Virus record (IMG/VR): IMGVR_UViG_3300029518_000108
Direction: 5' to 3' (one strand)
Origin: a virus
Lineage: Duplodnaviria; Heunggongvirae; Uroviricota; Caudoviricetes
DNA length: 8,548 nucleotides
This document shows, piece by piece, positions 1 to 8,548 of the stretch. The position numbers were made by a program, and so were the translations under genes. The notes below the pieces were generated by a model. It worked only from the letters and a program-made list of their open reading frames with translations. It made no database searches and had not been told where the DNA came from. Positions within the stretch are counted from its first letter, which is position 1. Every line of letters starts with the position of its first letter.

Positions 1-1
1 G

Positions 2-2152
2 CCTTCACATGCCGGAACCATTACCGTCTATGAAGGTTCCAGACCAGGTACGCTGAATGATTTTCTCGGTGCCATGACGGAAGATGATGTCATGCCGGAG
101 GCATTGCGTCGTTTTGAGGAAATGGTGGAAGAAGCGGCACGCAACGCTGAAGCCGCCTCTCAGAGCGCAGCGGCGGCAAAGAAATCCGAAACTGCAGCGG
201 CATCATCGAAGAACGCGGCGAAAACCTCAGAAACGAATGCAGCTAACAGCGCACAGGCGGCAGCGACCTCACAGACTGCATCGGCAAACTCCGCGACAGC
301 AGCCAAAAAATCAGAAACCAACGCGAAAAACAGCGAGACAGCCGCAAAGACGAGCGAAACCAACGCAAAGTCCAGCCAGACGGCAGCGAAGACCAGCGAA
401 ACGAATGCCAAAGCCAGTGAAACTGCGGCAAAAAACAGCCAGGTTGCAGCAGCCCAAAGCGAGAGCGCGGCAGCCGGTTCTGCGACTTCAGCAGCTGGAT
501 CAGCAACTGCTGCGGCTAACAGCCAGAAAGCTGCGAAGACGAGTGAAACTAACGCAAAGTCCAGCCAGACGGCAGCGAAGACCAGCGAAACGAATGCCAA
601 AGCCAGCGAAACTGCGGCAAAAAACAGTCAGGATGCAGCGGCCCAAAGCGAGAGTGCCGCAGCTGGTTCTGCAAGTGCGGCGGCTAATAGCCAAAAAGCT
701 GCAAAAACCAGTGAAACTAACGCAAAGACGAGTGAAACAAAAGCAGCAGCCAGCGAGACAGAAGCAACGTCAGCCGCAACAAGAGCAGAGAATGCAGCCC
801 GGATTGCAGAAGATGCCGCTGATCCTGCTTCAGTCCCTCCGCTTCCTGATATCTGGCTACCCTTGAATGATTCTCTGGAAGCGATAACAGGGTATGCCCC
901 GGGCTATAAAACAATAACCATCGGCAGTGATGAAATAACAATGCCTGTTAATGGCATATGCCAATTTAGCCGCGCTTCATCAGCAACGTATATTGATAAG
1001 TCAGGGCATATTACCGTGGCAGGGAATAACGTTCCTCGTTTTGAAAAATATGGTTTGCTGATAGAGAATCAGCGAACAAACATGTTCGTAAATAGTTTTA
1101 ATCCTGATGCGTGGAATAAAAGCGGTGGTATATCTGTAACATCATCAACAGATGAATTTGAGTTTAAATATGGACGTTTCGCAGTAGGAAGTGAGATAGC
1201 AGGAACGACAACAGGGAGAAATATATGCACAGTTGCTGGTAATAAAGGCATAGATGTGACTGGCGATGATCAGTACAGTAAAGGTCCGTATGTTACCGCG
1301 TCGTTCAGGGTAAGAAGTGATCTCAATGTTCGCGCACGTATCCGTTTTGAACGGTATAACTCGGAAGGATACACTTTCCTTTGTGACGCCTATTTGTCAT
1401 TACAGACCCATGAACTACAAATTACGGGTGGTAATGCCCAGCTATTAACAGCAAACTTTGAAATCGACCCTGGTAGTGGATGGATATATTTTCAGGCAAC
1501 ACTGAAATGTCTGCCAGAATGGGGAATGGTTGGTACGCAGCTGCAAATTGCAGCCGACAGAGCAGTGGGGGCTTTTGCAACAGGTGACTGGATAGAAGTA
1601 ACCACCCCGCAATTCGAGTATGGTGCTTGTGCAACTTCCTTTATCATAACGACAACAGAGCCAGCGACTCGTGCATCAGATTTATGTAAATTTCCGCTGA
1701 TGAAAAATATGTATACCATGCCTTTTACGTTCATGGTGGAAGTCCATAAAAACTGGTTTATTTCTCATAATGCTGCACCGCGTGTCATTGATTCAGAAAA
1801 TCACCAGTCCGGAGGCCCATTTATTATGGGGTTTGGTTCTTCTGGAACTATCAGTCAGGATGGTTATTCGTATTGCGATATAGGCGGGGCTAACCGGCGT
1901 GTATATGAGTCATGCGGAGTAAGAGATCTCGTTATGGGATTCAGGGTTAAGGCTGACGGCATGACATGCTCATTTGCAAATAAGAATATAAGCACTGAAA
2001 CCAAAACAGTATGGAAATATATTCGTGAAGCAGCCGTGATTCGTATCGGGGGGCAAACGACGACAGGATTACGACACCTTAATGGTCATATAAAAAACCT
2101 CCGTTTCTGGAACAGAGCATTGTCAGATACGCAGCTTAAGGAATACGTATAA
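2..2152 (+). CDS. stf: Side tail fibre protein (lambda Stf-like), 5'-partial: the reading frame is open from position 2, the ATG at 74 is internal
   Basis: Translation from position 2 gives PSHAGTITVYEGSRPGTLNDFLGAMTEDD..., matching the lambda Stf segment I recall (HAGTITVYEDSQPGTLNDFLCAMTEDD). This is followed by KTSETNAK/AAKTSE-type repeats and a 430-aa C-terminal module ending ...GHIKNLRFWNRALSDTQLKEYV. Stop TAA at 2150-2152. Confidence 0.9.
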   Translation, partial: PSHAGTITVYEGSRPGTLNDFLGAMTEDDVMPEALRRFEEMVEEAARNAEAASQSAAAAKKSETAAASSKNAAKTSETNAANSAQAAATSQTASANSATAAKKSETNAKNSETAAKTSETNAKSSQTAAKTSETNAKASETAAKNSQVAAAQSESAAAGSATSAAGSATAAANSQKAAKTSETNAKSSQTAAKTSETNAKASETAAKNSQDAAAQSESAAAGSASAAANSQKAAKTSETNAKTSETKAAASETEATSAATRAENAARIAEDAADPASVPPLPDIWLPLNDSLEAITGYAPGYKTITIGSDEITMPVNGICQFSRASSATYIDKSGHITVAGNNVPRFEKYGLLIENQRTNMFVNSFNPDAWNKSGGISVTSSTDEFEFKYGRFAVGSEIAGTTTGRNICTVAGNKGIDVTGDDQYSKGPYVTASFRVRSDLNVRARIRFERYNSEGYTFLCDAYLSLQTHELQITGGNAQLLTANFEIDPGSGWIYFQATLKCLPEWGMVGTQLQIAADRAVGAFATGDWIEVTTPQFEYGACATSFIITTTEPATRASDLCKFPLMKNMYTMPFTFMVEVHKNWFISHNAAPRVIDSENHQSGGPFIMGFGSSGTISQDGYSYCDIGGANRRVYESCGVRDLVMGFRVKADGMTCSFANKNISTETKTVWKYIREAAVIRIGGQTTTGLRHLNGHIKNLRFWNRALSDTQLKEYV
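347..706 (+). repeat. Near-identical tandem direct repeat inside stf: unit 1 is 347-535 (189 bp, 63 aa), unit 2 is 536-706 (about 171 bp, with an 18-bp in-frame deletion)
   Basis: Direct comparison of 347-535 with 536-706 shows only a few mismatches; the encoded peptides are both KTSETNAKSSQTAAKTSETNAKASETAAKNSQ.AAAQSESAAAGSA... Shorter degenerate copies lie at about 170-346 and 707-760. Confidence 0.9.
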
Positions 2153-2421
2153 TGCGGGATATAACATTACGATTCGATAACAGAGAACAGTTTAACGCAA
2201 TTGTATATGACAGTGGCCTGTTCAGTCTTGAAGAAGAAAATGGGGTTCTTGTTGATGTTATTGGCTGCATTATTGATTACGAGGAGCCAGAAAACGAAAG
2301 ATGTACAGGCATTGATCGCGGTGGTTTTTTCGTAAACATGAGGATTGTTGATGGCAGTAAAAACATATCTTCTTTAATGCCTTTCATTACGACAGATCAG
2401 CATGTAAGGACATGGGCTTAA
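2152..2421 (+). CDS. Hypothetical acidic 89-aa protein, translationally coupled to stf (TAATG overlap); possible fibre-tip assembly factor
   Basis: ATG at 2152 overlaps the stf stop; AAGGA at 2138-2142; same AT-rich composition as the stf C-terminal module. I recognise no motif in it. Confidence 0.55.
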   Translation: MRDITLRFDNREQFNAIVYDSGLFSLEEENGVLVDVIGCIIDYEEPENERCTGIDRGGFFVNMRIVDGSKNISSLMPFITTDQHVRTWA

Positions 2422-2433
2422 TGGAGTAAGACA

Positions 2434-3117
2434 ATGGTTACAAAAACAGTAATTCCGGGAGACATCACCACGCTAAAGGGAGATATTTCCTCAATTAACG
2501 GAAAAGTATCAACGCTTCAGACTGAGATGACCAGTGCAAAGCAGGATATCAGCACCAGATACACAAAAACTGAAGTTGATAATAAGCTGAAAAACAAAGT
2601 GGAAGCGAACGATCTGGAAAGCGGTCGTTATGGCGGTGATTTTTACCCGCTGACTGGCCGCGAAGCGTTTTATTTATGGGGGTTGGGCACGACTACTGCG
2701 GCGGCAAACCTTTATCTTAATCCTGACCCTGCAATTTCGTCTGTACTGCGGTCCACATCGTCTATCCGCTATAAACATTCAGTAGAGACGATAGATTCAG
2801 AGCACGCCGATCTCATTTTCAGGATGCGCCCTGTGTGGTACAGGTCGCAATGCGAAAATGACAGGCGTGACTGGGGGTTCTACGGATTGATTGCCGAGGA
2901 AGTAGGAGAAATTGCCCCTCAGTTTGTACACTGGCGACCAGCTAACGAAGATGATGCTCCTGAAGCTATTTCCAGCAATGGCCTTGTTGCCGAAGGTGTA
3001 ATGTACGAACGTCTGGTTGTTCCACTGATTCACCATATCCAGAAGCTGACTGAAAGAGTTGATGAACTTGAGTCAGAATTAAAGTTGTTATCCGTTTCCC
3101 GAAGCGATATCGGATAA
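2434..3117 (+). CDS. Tail-fibre-like protein, 227 aa: N-terminal coiled-coil-like segment plus a C-terminal intramolecular-chaperone (Peptidase S74-like) domain
   Basis: GGAG 7 nt upstream of the ATG. C-terminal half SSIRYKHSVETIDSEHADLIF...WGFYGLIAEEVGEIAPQFV...GVMYERLVVPLIHHIQKLTERVDELESELKLL fits the S74 chaperone pattern as I recall it (S-x-R-x-K, GLIAQEV-like core, terminal helix). Confidence 0.7.
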   Translation: MVTKTVIPGDITTLKGDISSINGKVSTLQTEMTSAKQDISTRYTKTEVDNKLKNKVEANDLESGRYGGDFYPLTGREAFYLWGLGTTTAAANLYLNPDPAISSVLRSTSSIRYKHSVETIDSEHADLIFRMRPVWYRSQCENDRRDWGFYGLIAEEVGEIAPQFVHWRPANEDDAPEAISSNGLVAEGVMYERLVVPLIHHIQKLTERVDELESELKLLSVSRSDIG

Positions 3118-3127
3118 AGGAGGCGTA

Positions 3128-3417
3128 ATGGATATAACACCTTTCCTTCATGCACTTTGTGCTGTGGCTGCGCAGGTACTGGTTGGTCTTTTTACCGGAA
3201 ACTGGGCTTACGGGGCGATAGCTGGTTGTACGTTCTTCATTGCGCGTGAACATACCCAGGCAGAATATCGCTGGATTGAAATGTTCGGGCATGGCAAGCG
3301 TATGAATATGCCGTGGTGGGGCGGTTTTGATCCGCGCGCGTGGGATGTGGCAAGCCTGATGGATTTTGCTGTGCCGGTGGTGGCGTGTCTGCTGGTCTGG
3401 CTGTTGGTTAATCGTGG
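3128..3417 (+). CDS. Small predicted inner-membrane protein (about 3 hydrophobic helices); 3' end undetermined because the ORF runs into the assembly gap
   Basis: Strong Shine-Dalgarno AAGGAGG at 3117-3123, ATG at 3128. Hydrophobic stretches FLHALCAVAAQVLVGLF, YGAIAGCTFFIA, VASLMDFAVPVVACLLVWLLV. The listed ORF end at 3505 crosses the N-run and is not trustworthy. Confidence 0.5.
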
Positions 3418-3427
3418 NNNNNNNNNN
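3418..3427. other. Assembly gap (run of 10 N); true length and content unknown
   Basis: Ten consecutive n characters; flanking genes are incomplete on both sides. Confidence 0.99.
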
Positions 3428-3438
3428 AAAAAAGGTGA

Positions 3439-3567
3439 GCTGTATATGCAACGGAGGAAGAAAACTCGTTGCTGGAAGCCTGGAAAAAGTATCGGGTATT
3501 GCTGAACCGTGTTGATACGTCAACTGCACCTGATATTGAGTGGCCTACGAACCCTGTCAGGGAGTAA
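3439..3567 (+). CDS. tfa: 3'-terminal fragment of a tail fibre assembly (Tfa) gene; N-terminal part missing in or before the gap
   Basis: Frame ending at TAA 3565-3567 translates to ...[38 protein letters not shown], matching the conserved lambda Tfa C-terminus as I recall it ([26 protein letters not shown]). An in-frame TGA at 3436-3438 sits just after the gap. Confidence 0.7.
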
Positions 3568-3581
3568 TCATTGGGATTATG

Positions 3582-3614
3582 CCGCAGCACGTCTTAAGCA
3601 AGAACGTGCTGCGG
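3582..3614. terminator. Perfect 11-bp inverted repeat (CCGCAGCACGT, 11-nt loop, ACGTGCTGCGG) between convergent tfa and dinI-like genes; candidate bidirectional terminator
   Basis: Stem read directly from the sequence; only weak T-richness follows on either strand, so intrinsic-terminator function is uncertain. Confidence 0.4.
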
Positions 3615-3682
3615 TTGGATGGTGAACTTTCGATAGTGCGAGTATTGAATGATTTCCAGCCGTTACCGATTTTACGTGTTAA

Positions 3683-3931
3683 TTAGTGAACAAACCACTC
3701 GTCAGCAGACTCCCAGGTATCTTTCAGAGTTTCCTGAACAAAAGTTTTAGCTGAATCTTTATCGGCGGTGCGCGTAACAGAAAGGCCATCGTTGCTGGTA
3801 GCTTTTACGATCACCTCTACATCGTCATAACGTTTACTGATGCGTCGGGTTAATTCTTCCTTTAACGCATCCACAGCACCGGTTGGCATTTTAGTCATTT
3901 TTTCTTTGGCTATGCAGATTTCAATACGCAT
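3683..3931 (-). CDS. DinI-like protein (prophage-encoded DinI family, 82 aa)
   Basis: MRIEICIAK...[11 protein letters not shown] resembles E. coli DinI as I recall it (MRIEVTIAK...TWESADDWFV). GAGGG Shine-Dalgarno upstream on the minus strand; SOS promoter directly upstream. Confidence 0.85.
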
Positions 3932-3946
3932 AAAAGTCCCTCTACA

Positions 3947-3962
3947 CTGTGTTTGTATACAG
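3947..3962. promoter_or_regulatory. LexA box 1 (CTGT-N8-ACAG: CTGTGTTTGTATACAG) between the -10 and the dinI-like start codon
   Basis: Exact match to the CTGT-N8-ACAG core with an AT-rich centre; extended site is ACTGTGTTTGTATACAGTAT. Confidence 0.8.
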
Positions 3963-3967
3963 TATCA

Positions 3968-3996
3968 TTTTTAACTGTATGGATAAACAGTGTCAA
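3968..3996 (-). promoter_or_regulatory. Sigma70-type promoter of the dinI-like gene: -35 TTGACA (plus-strand coordinates 3991-3996), 17-bp spacer, -10 TAAAAA (3968-3973)
   Basis: Minus-strand read is TTGACA-ctgtttatccatacagt-TAAAAA; perfect -35, 4/6 -10, about 35 nt to the ATG. No transcription start mapped. Confidence 0.6.
3975..3990. promoter_or_regulatory. LexA box 2 (CTGTATGGATAAACAG) filling the -35/-10 spacer
   Basis: Exact CTGT-N8-ACAG core; extended site is AACTGTATGGATAAACAGTG. Confidence 0.8.
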
Positions 3997-4017
3997 GGGT
4001 GAAGGAAAGTGATTTTT

Positions 4018-4076
4018 TGGGGCATGCATGGGGCAAAAATATTTGTTGTGGGGCATTTTGGGGCATGATTGGGACA
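4018..4076. repeat. Five helically phased direct copies of TGGGGCA(T/A) (starts 4018, 4029, 4049, 4059; degenerate TGGGACA at 4070)
   Basis: Read directly; spacings are 11, 20, 10 and 11 bp, i.e. roughly one helical turn. Located between the dinI-like promoter and the prophage/yecE junction. Confidence 0.85.
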
Positions 4077-4178
4077 CTTTGTTACATATGAACTTTGCCG
4101 ATTTTTATATGACATGGAAATACAACGCTTTGATTCTTCTAAATAAAAAACATGCTCTTGGGCGTTCTTTAGTGATTT

Positions 4179-4289
4179 TTAAAAATTCCGTATCACGCAG
4201 TTAAAGTGGCGGGCATACTCTTCAAGGCTGGTGATCCCCAACCGCACCCATTTAGGATGCGACCATTGCGGCAGACCGATGTAAATCAT
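4179..4289 (-). pseudogene. yecE: yecE 5' stub (about 32 native codons) fused to 4 phage-derived codons and a stop; gene disrupted by prophage insertion
   Basis: ATG at 4287-4289 overlaps the yecD stop (ATGA). Translation [36 protein letters not shown]-stop. The N-terminus fits the YecE/DUF72 pattern as I recall it; the ORF ends prematurely in AT-rich DNA. Confidence 0.6.
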
Positions 4290-4852
4290 AATGCGTTGAG
4301 GATCTCTTCCACACTGCGCACACGGGCGATGCGTGGGTAGATATGGTTGATGCTGTTATTGTGCTGCTCGGCGCTGGCGGCGCTGCAGGCGTCTTCGGCA
4401 ATCACCAGATTAAAACCGAGTTCCCAGGCATTGCGGGCGGTGGATTCAACACCGATATTGGTCGAGATCCCACATAAAACAATGGTATCGATATCCCGGC
4501 GGCGTAATTGCAACTCCAGATCCGTACCGTAAAACGCACCCCATTGACGTTTGATGATTTCGATATCGCTGTCGGTTGCACCTAATGCAGCAGGATGTTG
4601 CCACCAGTTTTCGGGTAACACTTTAGCGGGGGAAGGGGCATCAACCGGCTGTTTTAATGCTTCGGCGTAATCGGCAGACCAGCCAACGCGCACCAGAAAC
4701 ACGGGCTGACCGCTGGCGCGAAATTTTGCCGCCAGCTTCCCGGCGCGATTAACCACCTCATCGGCAGTATGTGGACCACCGGCAAAAGGTAAGATGCCTT
4801 CTTGTAAATCGATCACCACCAGCGCAGTGGTTTTAGCATTAAGTTCAAGCAT
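4286..4852 (-). CDS. yecD: Isochorismatase-family hydrolase YecD (188 aa)
   Basis: Protein [19 protein letters not shown]...[16 protein letters not shown]... has isochorismatase-like motifs. AGGAG sits 6 nt upstream of the ATG at 4852; the listed ORF start at 4885 is an upstream GTG without a Shine-Dalgarno. Confidence 0.9.
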
Positions 4853-5161: not shown

Positions 5162-6934
5162 ATGCGTACAGAATATTGTGGACAGCTCCGTTTGTCCCAC
5201 GTGGGGCAGCAGGTGACTCTGTGTGGTTGGGTCAACCGTCGTCGTGATCTTGGTAGCCTGATCTTCATCGATATGCGCGACCGCGAAGGTATCGTGCAGG
5301 TATTTTTCGATCCGGATCGTGCGGACGCGTTAAAGCTGGCCTCTGAACTGCGTAATGAGTTCTGCATTCAGGTCACGGGCACCGTACGTGCGCGTGACGA
5401 AAAAAATATTAACCGCGATATGGCGACCGGCGAAATTGAAGTGCTGGCGTCCTCGCTGACTATCATCAACCGCGCAGATGTTCTGCCGCTTGACTCTAAC
5501 CACGTCAACACCGAAGAAGCGCGTCTGAAATACCGCTACCTCGACCTGCGTCGCCCGGAAATGGCTCAGCGCCTGAAAACCCGCGCTAAAATCACCAGCC
5601 TGGTGCGCCGTTTTATGGATGACCACGGCTTCCTCGACATCGAAACTCCGATGCTGACCAAAGCCACGCCGGAAGGCGCGCGAGACTACCTGGTGCCTTC
5701 TCGTGTGCACAAAGGTAAATTCTACGCACTGCCGCAATCCCCGCAGTTGTTCAAACAGCTGCTGATGATGTCCGGTTTTGACCGTTACTATCAGATCGTT
5801 AAATGCTTCCGTGACGAAGACCTGCGCGCTGATCGTCAGCCTGAATTTACTCAGATCGATGTGGAAACTTCTTTCATGACCGCCCCGCAAGTGCGTGAAG
5901 TGATGGAAGCGCTGGTGCGTCATCTGTGGCTGGAAGTGAAGGGTGTGGATATGGGCGATTTCCCGGTAATGACCTTTGCGGAAGCAGAACGCCGTTATGG
6001 TTCTGATAAACCGGATCTGCGTAACCCGATGGAACTGACTGACGTTGCTGATCTGCTGAAATCTGTTGAGTTTGCTGTATTTGCAGGTCCGGCGAACGAT
6101 CCGAAAGGTCGCGTAGCGGCTCTGCGCGTTCCGGGCGGCGCATCGCTGACCCGTAAGCAGATCGACGAATACGGTAACTTCGTTAAAATCTACGGCGCGA
6201 AAGGTCTGGCTTACATCAAAGTTAACGAACGCGCGAAAGGTCTGGAAGGTATCAACAGCCCGGTAGCGAAGTTCCTTAATGCAGAAATCATCGAAGCCAT
6301 CCTGGATCGTACTGCCGCGCAAGATGGCGATATGATTTTCTTCGGTGCCGACAACAAGAAAATTGTTGCCGACGCGATGGGTGCACTGCGCCTGAAAGTG
6401 GGTAAAGACCTTGGTCTGACCGACGAAAGCAAATGGGCACCGCTGTGGGTTATCGATTTCCCGATGTTTGAAGACGACGGTGAAGGCGGCCTGACGGCAA
6501 TGCACCATCCGTTCACCTCACCAAAAGACATGACTGCTGCAGAACTGAAAGCTGCACCAGAAAATGCGGTGGCGAACGCTTACGATATGGTCATCAATGG
6601 TTACGAAGTGGGCGGTGGTTCTGTGCGTATCCATAATGGTGATATGCAGCAGACGGTGTTTGGTATTCTGGGTATCAACGAAGAGGAACAGCGCGAGAAA
6701 TTCGGCTTCCTGCTCGACGCCCTGAAATACGGTACTCCGCCGCACGCAGGTCTGGCATTCGGTCTTGACCGTCTGACCATGCTGCTGACCGGCACCGACA
6801 ATATCCGTGACGTTATCGCCTTCCCGAAAACCACGGCGGCAGCGTGTCTGATGACTGAAGCACCGAGCTTTGCTAACCCGACTGCACTGGCTGAGCTGAG
6901 CATTCAGGTTGTGAAGAAGGCAGAGAATAACTGA
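5162..6934 (+). CDS. aspS: Aspartate--tRNA ligase (590 aa)
   Basis: Full-length ORF; N-terminus [31 protein letters not shown] and class II synthetase motifs ([23 protein letters not shown]); length matches E. coli AspRS. Confidence 0.97.
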
Positions 6935-7532: not shown

Positions 7533-8273
7533 ATGGCAGGTCATAGTAAATGGGCCAACACCAGACATCGTAAAGCTGCGCAGGATGCTAAGCGCGGTAA
7601 AATCTTCACTAAAATCATTCGTGAGCTGGTAACCGCGGCTAAGCTGGGCGGTGGTGACCCGGACGCTAACCCGCGTCTGCGTGCAGCAATTGATAAAGCA
7701 TTGTCTAACAACATGACCCGTGACACTCTGAACCGCGCAATTGCACGTGGTGTGGGCGGTGATGATGATGCAAACATGGAAACCATCATCTACGAAGGTT
7801 ACGGTCCTGGCGGCACGGCAATCATGATTGAATGTCTGTCTGACAACCGCAACCGTACCGTTGCTGAAGTGCGTCATGCATTCAGTAAATGTGGCGGTAA
7901 CCTCGGTACTGATGGTTCCGTAGCTTATCTGTTCAGCAAAAAAGGCGTGATCTCCTTCGAGAAAGGCGATGAAGACACCATCATGGAAGCAGCACTGGAA
8001 GCAGGTGCTGAAGACGTTGTGACCTATGATGACGGCGCGATTGATGTCTACACTGCATGGGAAGAAATGGGTAAAGTGCGCGACGCTCTGGAAGCGGCAG
8101 GTCTGAAAGCAGACAGCGCGGAAGTTTCCATGATCCCGTCCACCAAAGCTGATATGGATGCAGAAACCGCACCGAAACTGATGCGTCTGATCGATATGCT
8201 GGAAGATTGCGACGACGTGCAGGAAGTTTACCATAACGGTGAAATCTCTGATGAGGTCGCAGCGACTCTCTGA
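7533..8273 (+). CDS. yebC: YebC/PmpR-family (TACO1-like) probable transcriptional regulator (246 aa)
   Basis: [31 protein letters not shown]... is the characteristic family N-terminus; GGAG 8 nt upstream of the ATG. Confidence 0.95.
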
Positions 8274-8307
8274 TGAGGCCTGCTAAACAGCAAAACGGAG
8301 ACGCGTG

Positions 8308-8548
8308 ATGGCTATTATTCTCGGCATTGATCCGGGTTCGCGCGTGACCGGCTACGGCGTCATCCGCCAGGTAGGTAGGCAACTGTCCTACCTGGGTAGC
8401 GGATGCATCCGCACCAAAGTGGATGATTTACCGTCTCGTCTGAAACTCATCTATGCGGGCGTGACGGAAATCATCACCCAGTTCCAGCCTGATTATTTCG
8501 CCATTGAACAAGTCTTTATGGCAAAGAACGCTGACTCAGCCCTGAAAC
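8308..8548 (+). CDS. ruvC: Holliday junction resolvase RuvC, 5' part only (runs off the right window edge)
   Basis: ATG at 8308 with GGAG 7 nt upstream; translation [31 protein letters not shown]...[27 protein letters not shown]. Not in the ORF track because it has no stop inside the window. Confidence 0.9.

What the first reader, a model, noticed from the sequence alone, without database searches (positions are those of the whole stretch)
4150..4300. Prophage-host junction inside yecE, leaving a 5' stub overlapping the yecD stop
Seen in sequence: the yecD stop TGA (4286-4288) overlaps an ATG (4287-4289) on the same strand, opening a frame that encodes [32 protein letters not shown] and then ends after IRNF at 4179-4181 in AT-rich DNA. 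Established: yecE follows yecD in E. coli K-12, YecE is a DUF72 protein of about 270 aa, and yecE is a reported integration site for lambdoid and Stx-converting prophages. Inference: the att core lies near 4190-4196, and the insertion inactivates yecE.
Basis: partly seen in the sequence, partly recalled or inferred. Interest (0 to 1): 0.5.

Follow-up and report, generated by a model that had tools for sequence, protein, structure and literature searches.

The report
Prophage end inserted in yecE
This is the tail-side end of a lambda-like prophage sitting in its usual attachment site inside the E. coli gene yecE, a well-documented and common arrangement that is ordinary.

Summary
On the minus strand, yecD (4852-4286) ends in an ATGA overlap with the yecE start (4289-4287). 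The first 32 yecE codons (4289-4194) match K-12. Identity then drops to chance level at 4193, and the frame closes after IRNF at 4181-4179.

Everything left of the junction is prophage: a DinI-like gene with two LexA boxes, and tail-fibre genes. The junction carries the 11-bp sequence TTAACTGCGTG (4204-4194). The Stx2e phage phiP27 record annotates exactly this sequence as its attL and attR.

The same junction occurs in 155-283 of 5426 complete E. coli genomes. About 10% of those genomes have yecE interrupted at this place. In related genomes the other prophage end carries xis and an arm-binding tyrosine integrase, followed by the rest of yecE.

Refinements:
- The core is 4194-4204, not 4190-4196.
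- A natural C/T polymorphism at 4197 suggests strand exchange within TTAACTG (4198-4204), so 4194-4197 are probably phage-derived.
- Five TGYCCCA repeats (4018-4076) are candidate integrase arm sites.
- yecE inactivation is likely but untested.
- Stx or effector cargo cannot be assessed from this window.

The feature is already known and of low interest.

The parts
4286..4852 (-). yecD (isochorismatase-family hydrolase), host gene. Its TGA stop at 4286-4288 overlaps the yecE ATG.
   Evidence: 567 nt, 95.8% identical to K-12 yecD. Annotated as yecD in all matching genomes.
4194..4289 (-). 5' stub of yecE: codons 1-32, [32 protein letters not shown].
   Evidence: One silent mismatch to K-12 yecE over 96 nt. 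Identity ends at 4193.
4179..4289 (-). Hybrid stub ORF of 36 codons: 32 yecE codons, then the phage-encoded IRNF, then TAA. It keeps the native ATGA coupling to yecD.
   Evidence: No Pfam match. PGAP calls the equivalent ORF a partial pseudogene in other genomes.
4194..4204 (-). att core copy TTAACTGCGTG on the tail side (attR in the phiP27 record's naming).
   Evidence: Identical to the 11-bp attL and attR misc_features of phiP27 AJ298298. It lies inside the site of the 21-bp att reported for Stx phages at yecE: the reverse complement of the related 21-bp attB-in-prophage sequence printed in PMC8112680, GTCATGCAGTTAAAGTGGCGG, is CCGCCACTTTAACTGCATGAC.
4198..4204 (-). TTAACTG, the inferred 7-bp strand-exchange (overlap) region. 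The host-to-phage switch lies here.
   Evidence: Base 4197 is C in the window. It is T in the closest prophage-free genome (Ecol_316), and that is the only difference between 4194 and 5742. Lysogens ECO_1_S and AR_0372 have C at this junction and T at the int-side junction. Left of TTAACTG the phage and host arms differ.
4153..4184 (-). Phage arm block TTTTAAAAATCACTAAAGAACGCCCAAGAGCA next to the core, conserved across three diverged phages. It may hold core-type or accessory-factor binding sites.
   Evidence: 31 of 32 columns are invariant in alignment A1 (window type, phiP27, CharmingMan), whose mean column identity is 86%.
4018..4076 (-). Five TG(C/T)CCCA repeats, arranged as two doublets 41 nt apart plus a single copy. 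They are candidate arm-type binding sites for the integrase.
   Evidence: Five of the window's seven matches fall in 59 bp, against 1.9 expected in the whole window. The doublets with 41-nt spacing recur in CharmingMan. Positions are conserved in phiP27 and CharmingMan, and two more copies lie in the int-proximal arm. The integrase has Pfam Arm-DNA-bind_2.
3947..3990 (+). Two LexA-box palindromes (CTGT-N8-ACAG) at 3947-3962 and 3975-3990. They overlap a promoter-like site upstream of the dinI-like gene.
   Evidence: Two matches against 0.10 expected. Promoter-like TTGACA-18-AAAAAT on the minus strand at 3996-3967.
3683..3931 (-). DinI-like gene (82 aa), the last intact gene of the prophage before the att site.
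   Evidence: Pfam DinI, E = 1.1e-19. Annotated as DinI-like in the matching genomes.
3428..4193 (+). Right-end segment of the prophage, nearly identical to the right end of the induced phage PhiR49_2 (PV340570).
   Evidence: Four mismatches in an ungapped comparison that starts right after the N-run. The phage record ends at window 4195.
3418..3427 (.). Run of 10 N (scaffold gap) inside the prophage.
1..3417 (+). Prophage side-tail-fibre module: ORFs 74-2152, 2152-2421, 2434-3117 and 3128 onward.
   Evidence: 97.5% identical to phage PhiR55_1 over window 1-3406, annotated there as side tail fiber protein plus hypothetical proteins.

Best explanation
The window holds the tail-side junction (attR in the phiP27 record's naming) of a lambdoid prophage. 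The prophage integrated by tyrosine-integrase site-specific recombination into its attachment site within codons 29-32 of yecE.

**Shown.** Host DNA (ruvC-yebC-nudB-aspS / yecD / first 32 codons of yecE) runs up to the 11-bp core TTAACTGCGTG at 4204-4194. Phage DNA follows: a conserved arm, five TGYCCCA repeats, a LexA-controlled dinI-like gene, and tail-fibre genes.

**Shown in related genomes, not in the window.** The other end of such prophages carries xis and a 437-aa integrase with an arm-DNA-binding domain. A second core copy and yecE codons 33-272 follow it.

**Inferred.**
- Strand exchange occurs in the 7-bp TTAACTG (4198-4204).
- This stretch is flanked by short imperfect inverted core sites, (CC)GTCA..TGA(C/T)A.
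- The TGYCCCA repeats are the arm-type sites bound by the integrase N-terminal domain.
- Integration splits yecE. What is left is a 36-codon hybrid stub still coupled to yecD, and a promoterless 3' part without a canonical start. YecE is therefore most likely not made.
For: **Break in identity.** Identity with K-12 ends exactly after yecE codon 32.

**Core.** The core is identical to phiP27 attL and attR.

**Phage arm.**
- It is near-identical to the right end of the viable induced phage PhiR49_2, whose left end encodes int and xis.
- It is contiguous with the int-side arm across an intact attP in the free phage CharmingMan.

**Complete prophage elsewhere.** In ECO_1_S a roughly 41.6-kb prophage lies between the same junction and xis-int-yecE'.

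**Integrase.** Pfam finds Arm-DNA-bind_2 and Phage_integrase.

**Frequency.**
- The junction is present in 155-283 complete genomes.
- yecE is contiguous at this site in 4903 of 5426 genomes, so about 10% are interrupted.

**Position of exchange.**
- The closest prophage-free genome has T at the position matching 4197, where the window has C.
- The T allele is present in 524 intact yecE genes.
- Lysogens with C at the tail-side junction and T at the int-side junction exist. None of the three T-type tail-side junctions checked had C at the int side.

**Repeats.** TGYCCCA copies are clustered and conserved.

**Literature.** yecE is an established att locus (PMC8112680; PMC3603311; PMC8065619; PMC9751135).
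Against: - The int-side junction, int and xis of this particular prophage are not in the window. Whether it is complete, excisable or a remnant is unknown.
- A scaffold gap (3418-3427) interrupts the prophage 767 bases from the junction.
- Placing the exchange in TTAACTG rests on one SNP and assumes the ancestral host had T. A heteroduplex across a longer overlap that segregated at replication would give the same C/T pattern. Only 3 of the 11 T-type tail-side junctions were examined, and all three carry the same prophage type.
- Arm-type and core-type sites are inferred from repeats and conservation. No binding data exist.
- Loss of YecE function is not tested. The 3' part still scores as DUF72 (profile positions 15-215) and lies directly downstream of int on the same strand.
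Confidence: 0.93

Rival explanations
1. The junction is the scar of a degraded or rearranged prophage. The remainder of yecE and the integrase end have been deleted or moved elsewhere by recombination between prophages, so this is not one end of an intact, simply integrated phage.
For: - The window lacks the other junction.
- A scaffold gap sits in the tail-fibre region, and sequence on its two sides matches different phages best: PhiR55_1 on the left, PhiR49_2 on the right.
- Tail-fibre assembly pseudogene fragments are annotated in the equivalent region of ECO_1_S.
- In BEC1-S17-ESBL-09, NMBU_W05E18 and MLI109 the two yecE junctions lie 0.6-0.9 Mb apart.
Against: - The junction itself is the precise att core, so the original event was still site-specific integration.
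- Many genomes with this junction have a complete prophage with int and xis about 42-48 kb away.
- PhiR49_2, which has the same right end, is an induced viable phage.
Confidence: 0.15
2. Integration does not abolish YecE. The phage supplies a new N-terminus and expression signals, so that a remodelled 256-aa DUF72 protein is made from the int transcript. Phages that integrate in icd repair their target gene in a comparable way.
For: - PGAP annotates a 256-aa DUF72 protein overlapping the int stop in lysogens.
- It keeps Pfam DUF72 profile positions 15-215 of 217.
- The last 7 phage-encoded residues, TRHVNCV, mimic YecE ARHFNCV.
Against: - The annotated start is ATT. There is no ATG, GTG or TTG before codon 32 in that frame, and I saw no Shine-Dalgarno-like sequence when reading it.
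- The similarity TRHVNCV/ARHFNCV is what core-type site similarity between attP and attB would produce anyway.
- YecE residues 1-25, which align with the N-terminus of the solved DUF72 protein EF0366 (1vpy), are replaced by 9 unrelated residues.
- Bobay et al. list yecE among genes disrupted by prophage integration.
Confidence: 0.07
3. The junction is an assembly or scaffolding artefact that joins phage and chromosomal contigs.
For: The window contains a 10-N scaffold gap at 3418-3427.
Against: - The gap is 767 bases from the junction.
- Sequence from 3428 through the junction into yecD is continuous.
- The same junction is found base for base in 155 closed genomes.
Confidence: 0.01

Closest known systems
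Stx2e phage phiP27 (AJ298298 / NC_003356) integrated in yecE
   Same: - The 11-bp att core TTAACTGCGTG is identical, at the same place in yecE.
- The int-proximal arm of the window-type prophage (taken from ECO_1_S) is 93.8% identical to phiP27 over its last 400 nt.
- The tail-side arm shares the conserved block next to the core and the TGYCCCA repeat layout.
   Different: - The rest of the tail-side arm is diverged. phiP27 has no dinI-like gene at that end; it has L57 and L58 instead.
- The tail-fibre genes differ.
- The window gives no evidence of stx2e.
Escherichia phage PhiR49_2 (PV340570), an induced ECOR phage
   Same: The last 768 nt before the att site match with 4 mismatches, covering the dinI-like gene, LexA boxes, repeats and arm. 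Its left end has the same int and xis as the ECO_1_S prophage.
   Different: The tail-fibre module left of the window's N-run matches PhiR55_1 and PhiR11_1 better.
Stx1a, Stx2a and Stx2d phages and non-Stx phages at yecE in O145:H28 and other STEC (Nakamura et al. 2021, PMC8112680)
   Same: They use the same site in yecE. The printed 21-bp attB-in-prophage sequence, which the paper says is similar to the yecE att and derived from yecE, reverse-complements to CCGCCACTTTAACTGCATGAC. That overlaps window 4194-4214.
   Different: The reported shared att is 21 bp, against 11 bp for phiP27. The cargo includes stx genes. I did not compare their integrases or arms with those here.
Phage lambda attP / Int system
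   Same: It works the same way in outline: a tyrosine integrase with an N-terminal arm-binding domain, a short core with a roughly 7-bp overlap, repeated arm-type sites on both arms, and xis next to int.
   Different: The target differs (inside a protein-coding gene rather than between gal and bio). The core and arm-site sequences differ, and the integrase is larger (437 aa). None of the site roles is tested here.

Membership tests
phiP27-type yecE attachment site junction | The 11-bp core TTAACTGCGTG lies at the phage-host boundary. | tested here: met
   Window 4204-4194 on the minus strand equals the attL and attR features of AJ298298.
phiP27-type yecE attachment site junction | The host side of the boundary is yecE, interrupted at codons 29-32 and downstream of yecD. 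| tested here: met
   Ungapped alignment to K-12 yecD-yecE.
phiP27-type yecE attachment site junction | The phage side is homologous to the tail-side att arm of phages with this integrase. | tested here: met
   Near-identical to the PhiR49_2 right end. Conserved blocks shared with phiP27 and with the native attP of CharmingMan.
phiP27-type yecE attachment site junction | A P27-family tyrosine integrase and excisionase lie at the other prophage end, followed by a second core copy and the 3' part of yecE. | not testable with these tools
   This lies outside the 8.5-kb window. It is present in related lysogens ECO_1_S, Combat2C1, HM670 and MS20657.
Stx-converting (or effector-carrying) prophage | stx genes between Q and the lysis genes, or T3SS effector genes near the tail end. 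| not testable with these tools
   - The window covers only the last roughly 4.2 kb of the prophage, and none of the ORFs I identified in it (tail-fibre genes, dinI-like gene) is a toxin or effector gene.
- ECO_1_S and PhiR49_2 carry tRNAs but no stx at the Q-S position.
- Other yecE prophages carry an ArtAB-like toxin or stx (literature).
Lambda-type tyrosine-integrase att site | Repeated arm-type sites on both arms, and an integrase with an arm-binding domain. | tested here: inconclusive
   - TGYCCCA repeats are clustered.
- They are conserved in position in three phages and occur on both arms.
- Pfam Arm-DNA-bind_2 is present in the integrase of related prophages.
- Binding is not tested.
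Lambda-type tyrosine-integrase att site | A 6-8 bp overlap region, identical in attP and attB, in which strands are exchanged. | tested here: inconclusive
   The C/T polymorphism at 4197 segregates with the arms, which places exchange in TTAACTG. A single SNP cannot exclude the heteroduplex alternative.

The most novel reading that the evidence does not exclude
The most novel reading left open has two parts.

1. Natural C/T variation at core position 8 maps the exchange region of the P27-family integrase to the 7-bp TTAACTG. If so, the four bases 4194-4197, which look like host sequence when compared with K-12, are actually phage-derived.
2. Lysogens may still express a remodelled, N-terminally replaced YecE, or the 36-aa stub peptide, with some function.

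The first part is a small mechanistic refinement of a known att site. The second would make yecE integration a gene-remodelling event rather than a simple knockout.
Probability: 0.1. Interest if true: 0.3.

Novelty: already known. Interest (0 to 1): 0.1.

Why it matters
It matters little beyond annotation.

- **Prophage boundary.** The result fixes the right boundary of the prophage in this assembly at 4194-4204.
- **Annotation of the stub.** The 36-codon ORF after yecD should be annotated as a yecE pseudogene fragment.
- **Locus of interest.** yecE is one of the recognised insertion sites of Shiga-toxin phages, and related yecE prophages carry an ArtAB-like toxin. The rest of the source genome should therefore be screened for such cargo.
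- **Exchange region.** The C/T polymorphism offers a cheap, data-only way to place the exchange region of this integrase family. The site itself and the gene disruption are long established.

Tried and rejected
- **RNA genes.** Rfam at gathering thresholds and a tRNA scan of the whole window found nothing. No RNA gene is involved in this att site.
- **Terminators.** The terminator scan around the junction found none. I found no evidence that the phage arm supplies a terminator after the stub.
- **IHF sites.** I looked by eye for IHF-like consensus sites in the conserved block next to the core and found no convincing match. This is not reported as a feature.
- **Original phiP27 paper.** I tried to read it (PMC127862) for the experimentally defined attP and attB. 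It is not held, so the GenBank attL and attR features were used instead.
- **PhiR49_2 as attP evidence.** I rejected using the joined ends of the PhiR49_2 record, because the record is cut at approximate prophage boundaries. The native attP of CharmingMan was used instead.
- **Pairing junction alleles.** The exact 31-mer lists could not pair the two junction alleles for the T-type genomes. Those genomes have an extra SNP (GAGGGTAAC) beside the int-side core. Three were checked individually instead.
- **Assembly artefact.** Considered and rejected.

Full report
**1. The observation**

Reading the minus strand, yecD runs from ATG 4852 to TGA 4288-4286. The ATG at 4289-4287 overlaps that stop as ATGA. 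It opens a frame encoding [32 protein letters not shown], then IRNF, and stops at TAA 4181-4179.

I fetched K-12 MG1655 yecD-yecE (yecD b1867; yecE b1868, 272 aa; then yecN, cmoA, cmoB) and aligned it without gaps.
- yecD is 95.8% identical.
- The first 96 nt of yecE have one silent mismatch.
- Identity collapses to chance level from window 4193 leftward.

The stub is therefore yecE codons 1-32, and the break is real.

**2. What lies on the other side**

Left of the break the window is prophage DNA.
- ORF 3683-3931 (minus strand) is a DinI-family protein (Pfam E = 1.1e-19).
- It is preceded by two CTGT-N8-ACAG LexA-type palindromes at 3947-3962 and 3975-3990. That is 2 found against 0.10 expected.
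- A promoter-like TTGACA-18-AAAAAT lies there too.
- Window 1-3406 is 97.5% identical to the side-tail-fibre region of phage PhiR55_1.
- Window 3428-4195 matches the extreme right end of the induced ECOR phage PhiR49_2 with 4 mismatches.
- A run of 10 N at 3418-3427 separates these two parts. It is a scaffold gap 767 bases inside the prophage and does not affect the junction.
- Rfam and tRNA scans of the window are empty.

**3. Recurrence**

- A 1301-nt query across the junction is at least 80% covered in 283 of 5426 complete E. coli genomes.
- The exact 31-mer across the junction is in 155.
- The first 200 nt of yecE are contiguous in 4903 of 5426 genomes, so about 10% are interrupted at or near this place.

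This is a common, stereotyped junction.

**4. The other end, seen in relatives**

In strain ECO_1_S the same junction is followed by a typical lambdoid prophage. Its genes run from tail to head, terminase, lysis, Q with tRNAs, replication, and cI/cro. It ends about 41.6 kb away with an excisionase and a 437-aa tyrosine integrase, directly followed by the remainder of yecE, then yecN, cmoA and cmoB.

The integrase has Pfam Arm-DNA-bind_2 (E = 9.8e-24) and Phage_integrase domains.

At that junction the sequence is ...ACCCGTCATGTTAACTGTGTG|GAGGGCAAC.... Identity to K-12 yecE resumes at codon 33, with imperfect similarity over the preceding 20 nt or so.

**5. Identity of the att site**

- The phiP27 (Stx2e phage) record AJ298298 annotates attL (1-11) and attR (42565-42575). 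Both read TTAACTGCGTG in yecE orientation. That is exactly window 4204-4194.
- Its integrase-side arm is 93.8% identical to that of the ECO_1_S prophage.
- The free phage CharmingMan carries a native, diverged attP in which the int-side arm, the core (TCAACTGCGTG) and the tail-side arm are contiguous. This confirms that the window's phage arm is one half of an attP.
- Nakamura et al. (PMC8112680) report Stx1a, Stx2a, Stx2d and non-Stx phages at yecE with a 21-bp att. They print a related, yecE-derived 21-bp attB found inside prophages as GTCATGCAGTTAAAGTGGCGG. Its reverse complement, CCGCCACTTTAACTGCATGAC, overlaps the same yecE bases, window 4194-4214.
- Reviews and other studies list yecE among the standard Stx-phage insertion sites.
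- Bobay et al. list yecE among core genes disrupted by prophages.

**6. Refining where exchange happens**

Core position 8 (window 4197) is polymorphic.
- The window has C.
- The closest prophage-free genome, Ecol_316, is 99.4% identical over the host part. It has an intact yecE with T there, and this is the only difference between 4194 and 5742.
- The T allele occurs in 524 intact yecE genes.

Exact 31-mer counts for the junction alleles:

| Junction | C allele | T allele |
|---|---|---|
| Tail side | 155 genomes | 11 genomes |
| Int side | 136 genomes | 46 genomes |

- ECO_1_S and AR_0372 have C at the tail side and T at the int side.
- FORC_069 and NCCP15648 have C at both.
- Combat2C1, HM670 and MS20657 have T at both, and all three carry the same, different prophage type.
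- No case of T at the tail side with C at the int side was seen.

The simplest reading is as follows. Position 8 travels with the arm to its right, so exchange lies to its left. Phage and host already differ just left of TTAACTG (CATG against CACT). The exchanged segment is therefore the 7-bp TTAACTG, window 4198-4204.

That stretch sits symmetrically between short imperfect inverted repeats, GTCA-tg-TTAACTG-cg-TGA(C/T)A, which I read directly.

On this reading, bases 4194-4197 are phage-derived in the window. They coincide with the K-12 allele only by chance.

This is an inference from one SNP. A longer overlap with heteroduplex segregation would also yield the C/T class.

**7. Candidate arm sites**

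- TG(C/T)CCCA occurs five times in 4018-4076 on the minus strand. That is 5 of the window's 7 matches, with 1.9 expected in the whole window.
- The copies form two doublets 41 nt apart plus a single copy.
- The same layout, with the same spacing, is found in CharmingMan and phiP27 despite divergence of the flanks. Two further copies lie in the int-proximal arm inside the 3' end of int.

Together with the arm-binding domain of the integrase, these are the likely arm-type sites. A 32-nt block next to the core (window 4153-4184) is nearly invariant in the three phages. Its role is unknown.

**8. Consequence for yecE**

In the window, the stub keeps the native translational coupling to yecD. It would give a 36-residue peptide with no Pfam match.

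In related lysogens the 3' part (codons 33-272) is fused in frame to 16 phage codons overlapping the int stop. PGAP annotates it as a 256-aa DUF72 protein starting at ATT. It still matches DUF72 profile positions 15-215.

Several points argue against expression or function:
- There is no ATG, GTG or TTG before codon 32 in that frame.
- YecE residues 1-25 align with the N-terminus of the solved DUF72 protein EF0366 (1vpy). They are replaced by unrelated residues.
- The short resemblance TRHVNCV/ARHFNCV is what similarity of core-type sites would produce.

Loss of YecE is therefore likely (my estimate is about 0.8), but it is not demonstrated. The function of YecE is unknown.

**9. What cannot be said**

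The window does not include the regulatory or toxin-carrying part of the prophage, int, or the second junction. Completeness, inducibility and cargo of this particular prophage are therefore open.

Among prophages at this site, some carry nothing notable at the Q-S position except tRNAs (ECO_1_S, PhiR49_2). Others carry an ArtAB-like toxin pair and ompT. Others carry stx (literature).

**10. Verdict**

The feature is the well-known yecE prophage attachment junction of the phiP27 type. It is already known and ordinary, and interest is low. The refinements are:
- the exact core, 4194-4204;
- the probable exchange region, 4198-4204;
- the candidate arm sites, 4018-4076;
- the caveat that yecE inactivation and toxin cargo are untested.

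Noticed in passing
window 3418-3427: A run of 10 N (scaffold gap) coincides with a switch in best phage match: PhiR55_1-like tail-fibre genes on the left, a PhiR49_2-like right end on the right. Continuity across the gap is unverified. The ORF 3128-3505 that spans it is not trustworthy.
   Followed up: partly
window 3683-3996: A DinI-like gene (3683-3931, minus strand) is preceded by two LexA-box palindromes (3947-3962, 3975-3990) and a promoter-like site. This looks like an SOS-controlled moron at the prophage end.
   Followed up: partly
L003 21550-22320 (ECO_1_S), and the equivalents in L009, L010 and L012: PGAP annotates the 5'-truncated yecE next to int as an intact 256-aa 'DUF72 domain-containing protein' (sometimes even as 'yecE'). 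The start is a non-canonical ATT overlapping the int stop. This is probably an annotation artefact that hides the gene disruption.
   Followed up: partly
L009 32497-33783; L010 33055-34341; L012 33096-34382: Other prophages at the same yecE site (Combat2C1, HM670, MS20657) carry a scabin-related ADP-ribosyltransferase plus a subtilase-family AB5 binding subunit just downstream of Q. This is an ArtAB-like toxin pair at the position where stx sits in Stx phages. They also carry ompT and an acetyltransferase near the att end.
   Followed up: no
NZ_AP022298.1, NZ_CP042878.1, NZ_CP117008.1: In BEC1-S17-ESBL-09, NMBU_W05E18 and MLI109 the tail-side and int-side yecE junctions lie about 0.63, 0.88 and 0.71 Mb apart. 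This suggests large chromosomal inversions or translocations by recombination between prophages.
   Followed up: no
window 5743-6106 and 8228-8523: The 27 differences from the closest complete genome (Ecol_316) are clustered: 11 within aspS at 5743-6106, and 10 from the 3' end of yebC into ruvC at 8228-8523. Long stretches elsewhere are identical. The pattern looks like short recombination tracts. No complete genome is more than 99.4% identical over the host part.
   Followed up: no
window 74-900: The N-terminal third of the 692-aa side-tail-fibre ORF is a low-complexity Ala/Ser/Thr/Lys-rich region with repeated AAKTSETNAK-like units. It generates many spurious overlapping ORFs on both strands.
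   Followed up: no
window 4093-4107 and 4167-4181; L007 2913-2925 and 2986-2998: A second short repeat, AAAATC(A/G)(C/G)(T/C)AAAG in yecE orientation, occurs twice about 73-74 nt apart in the tail-side att arm of both the window-type phage and CharmingMan. It may be an accessory-protein site.
   Followed up: no
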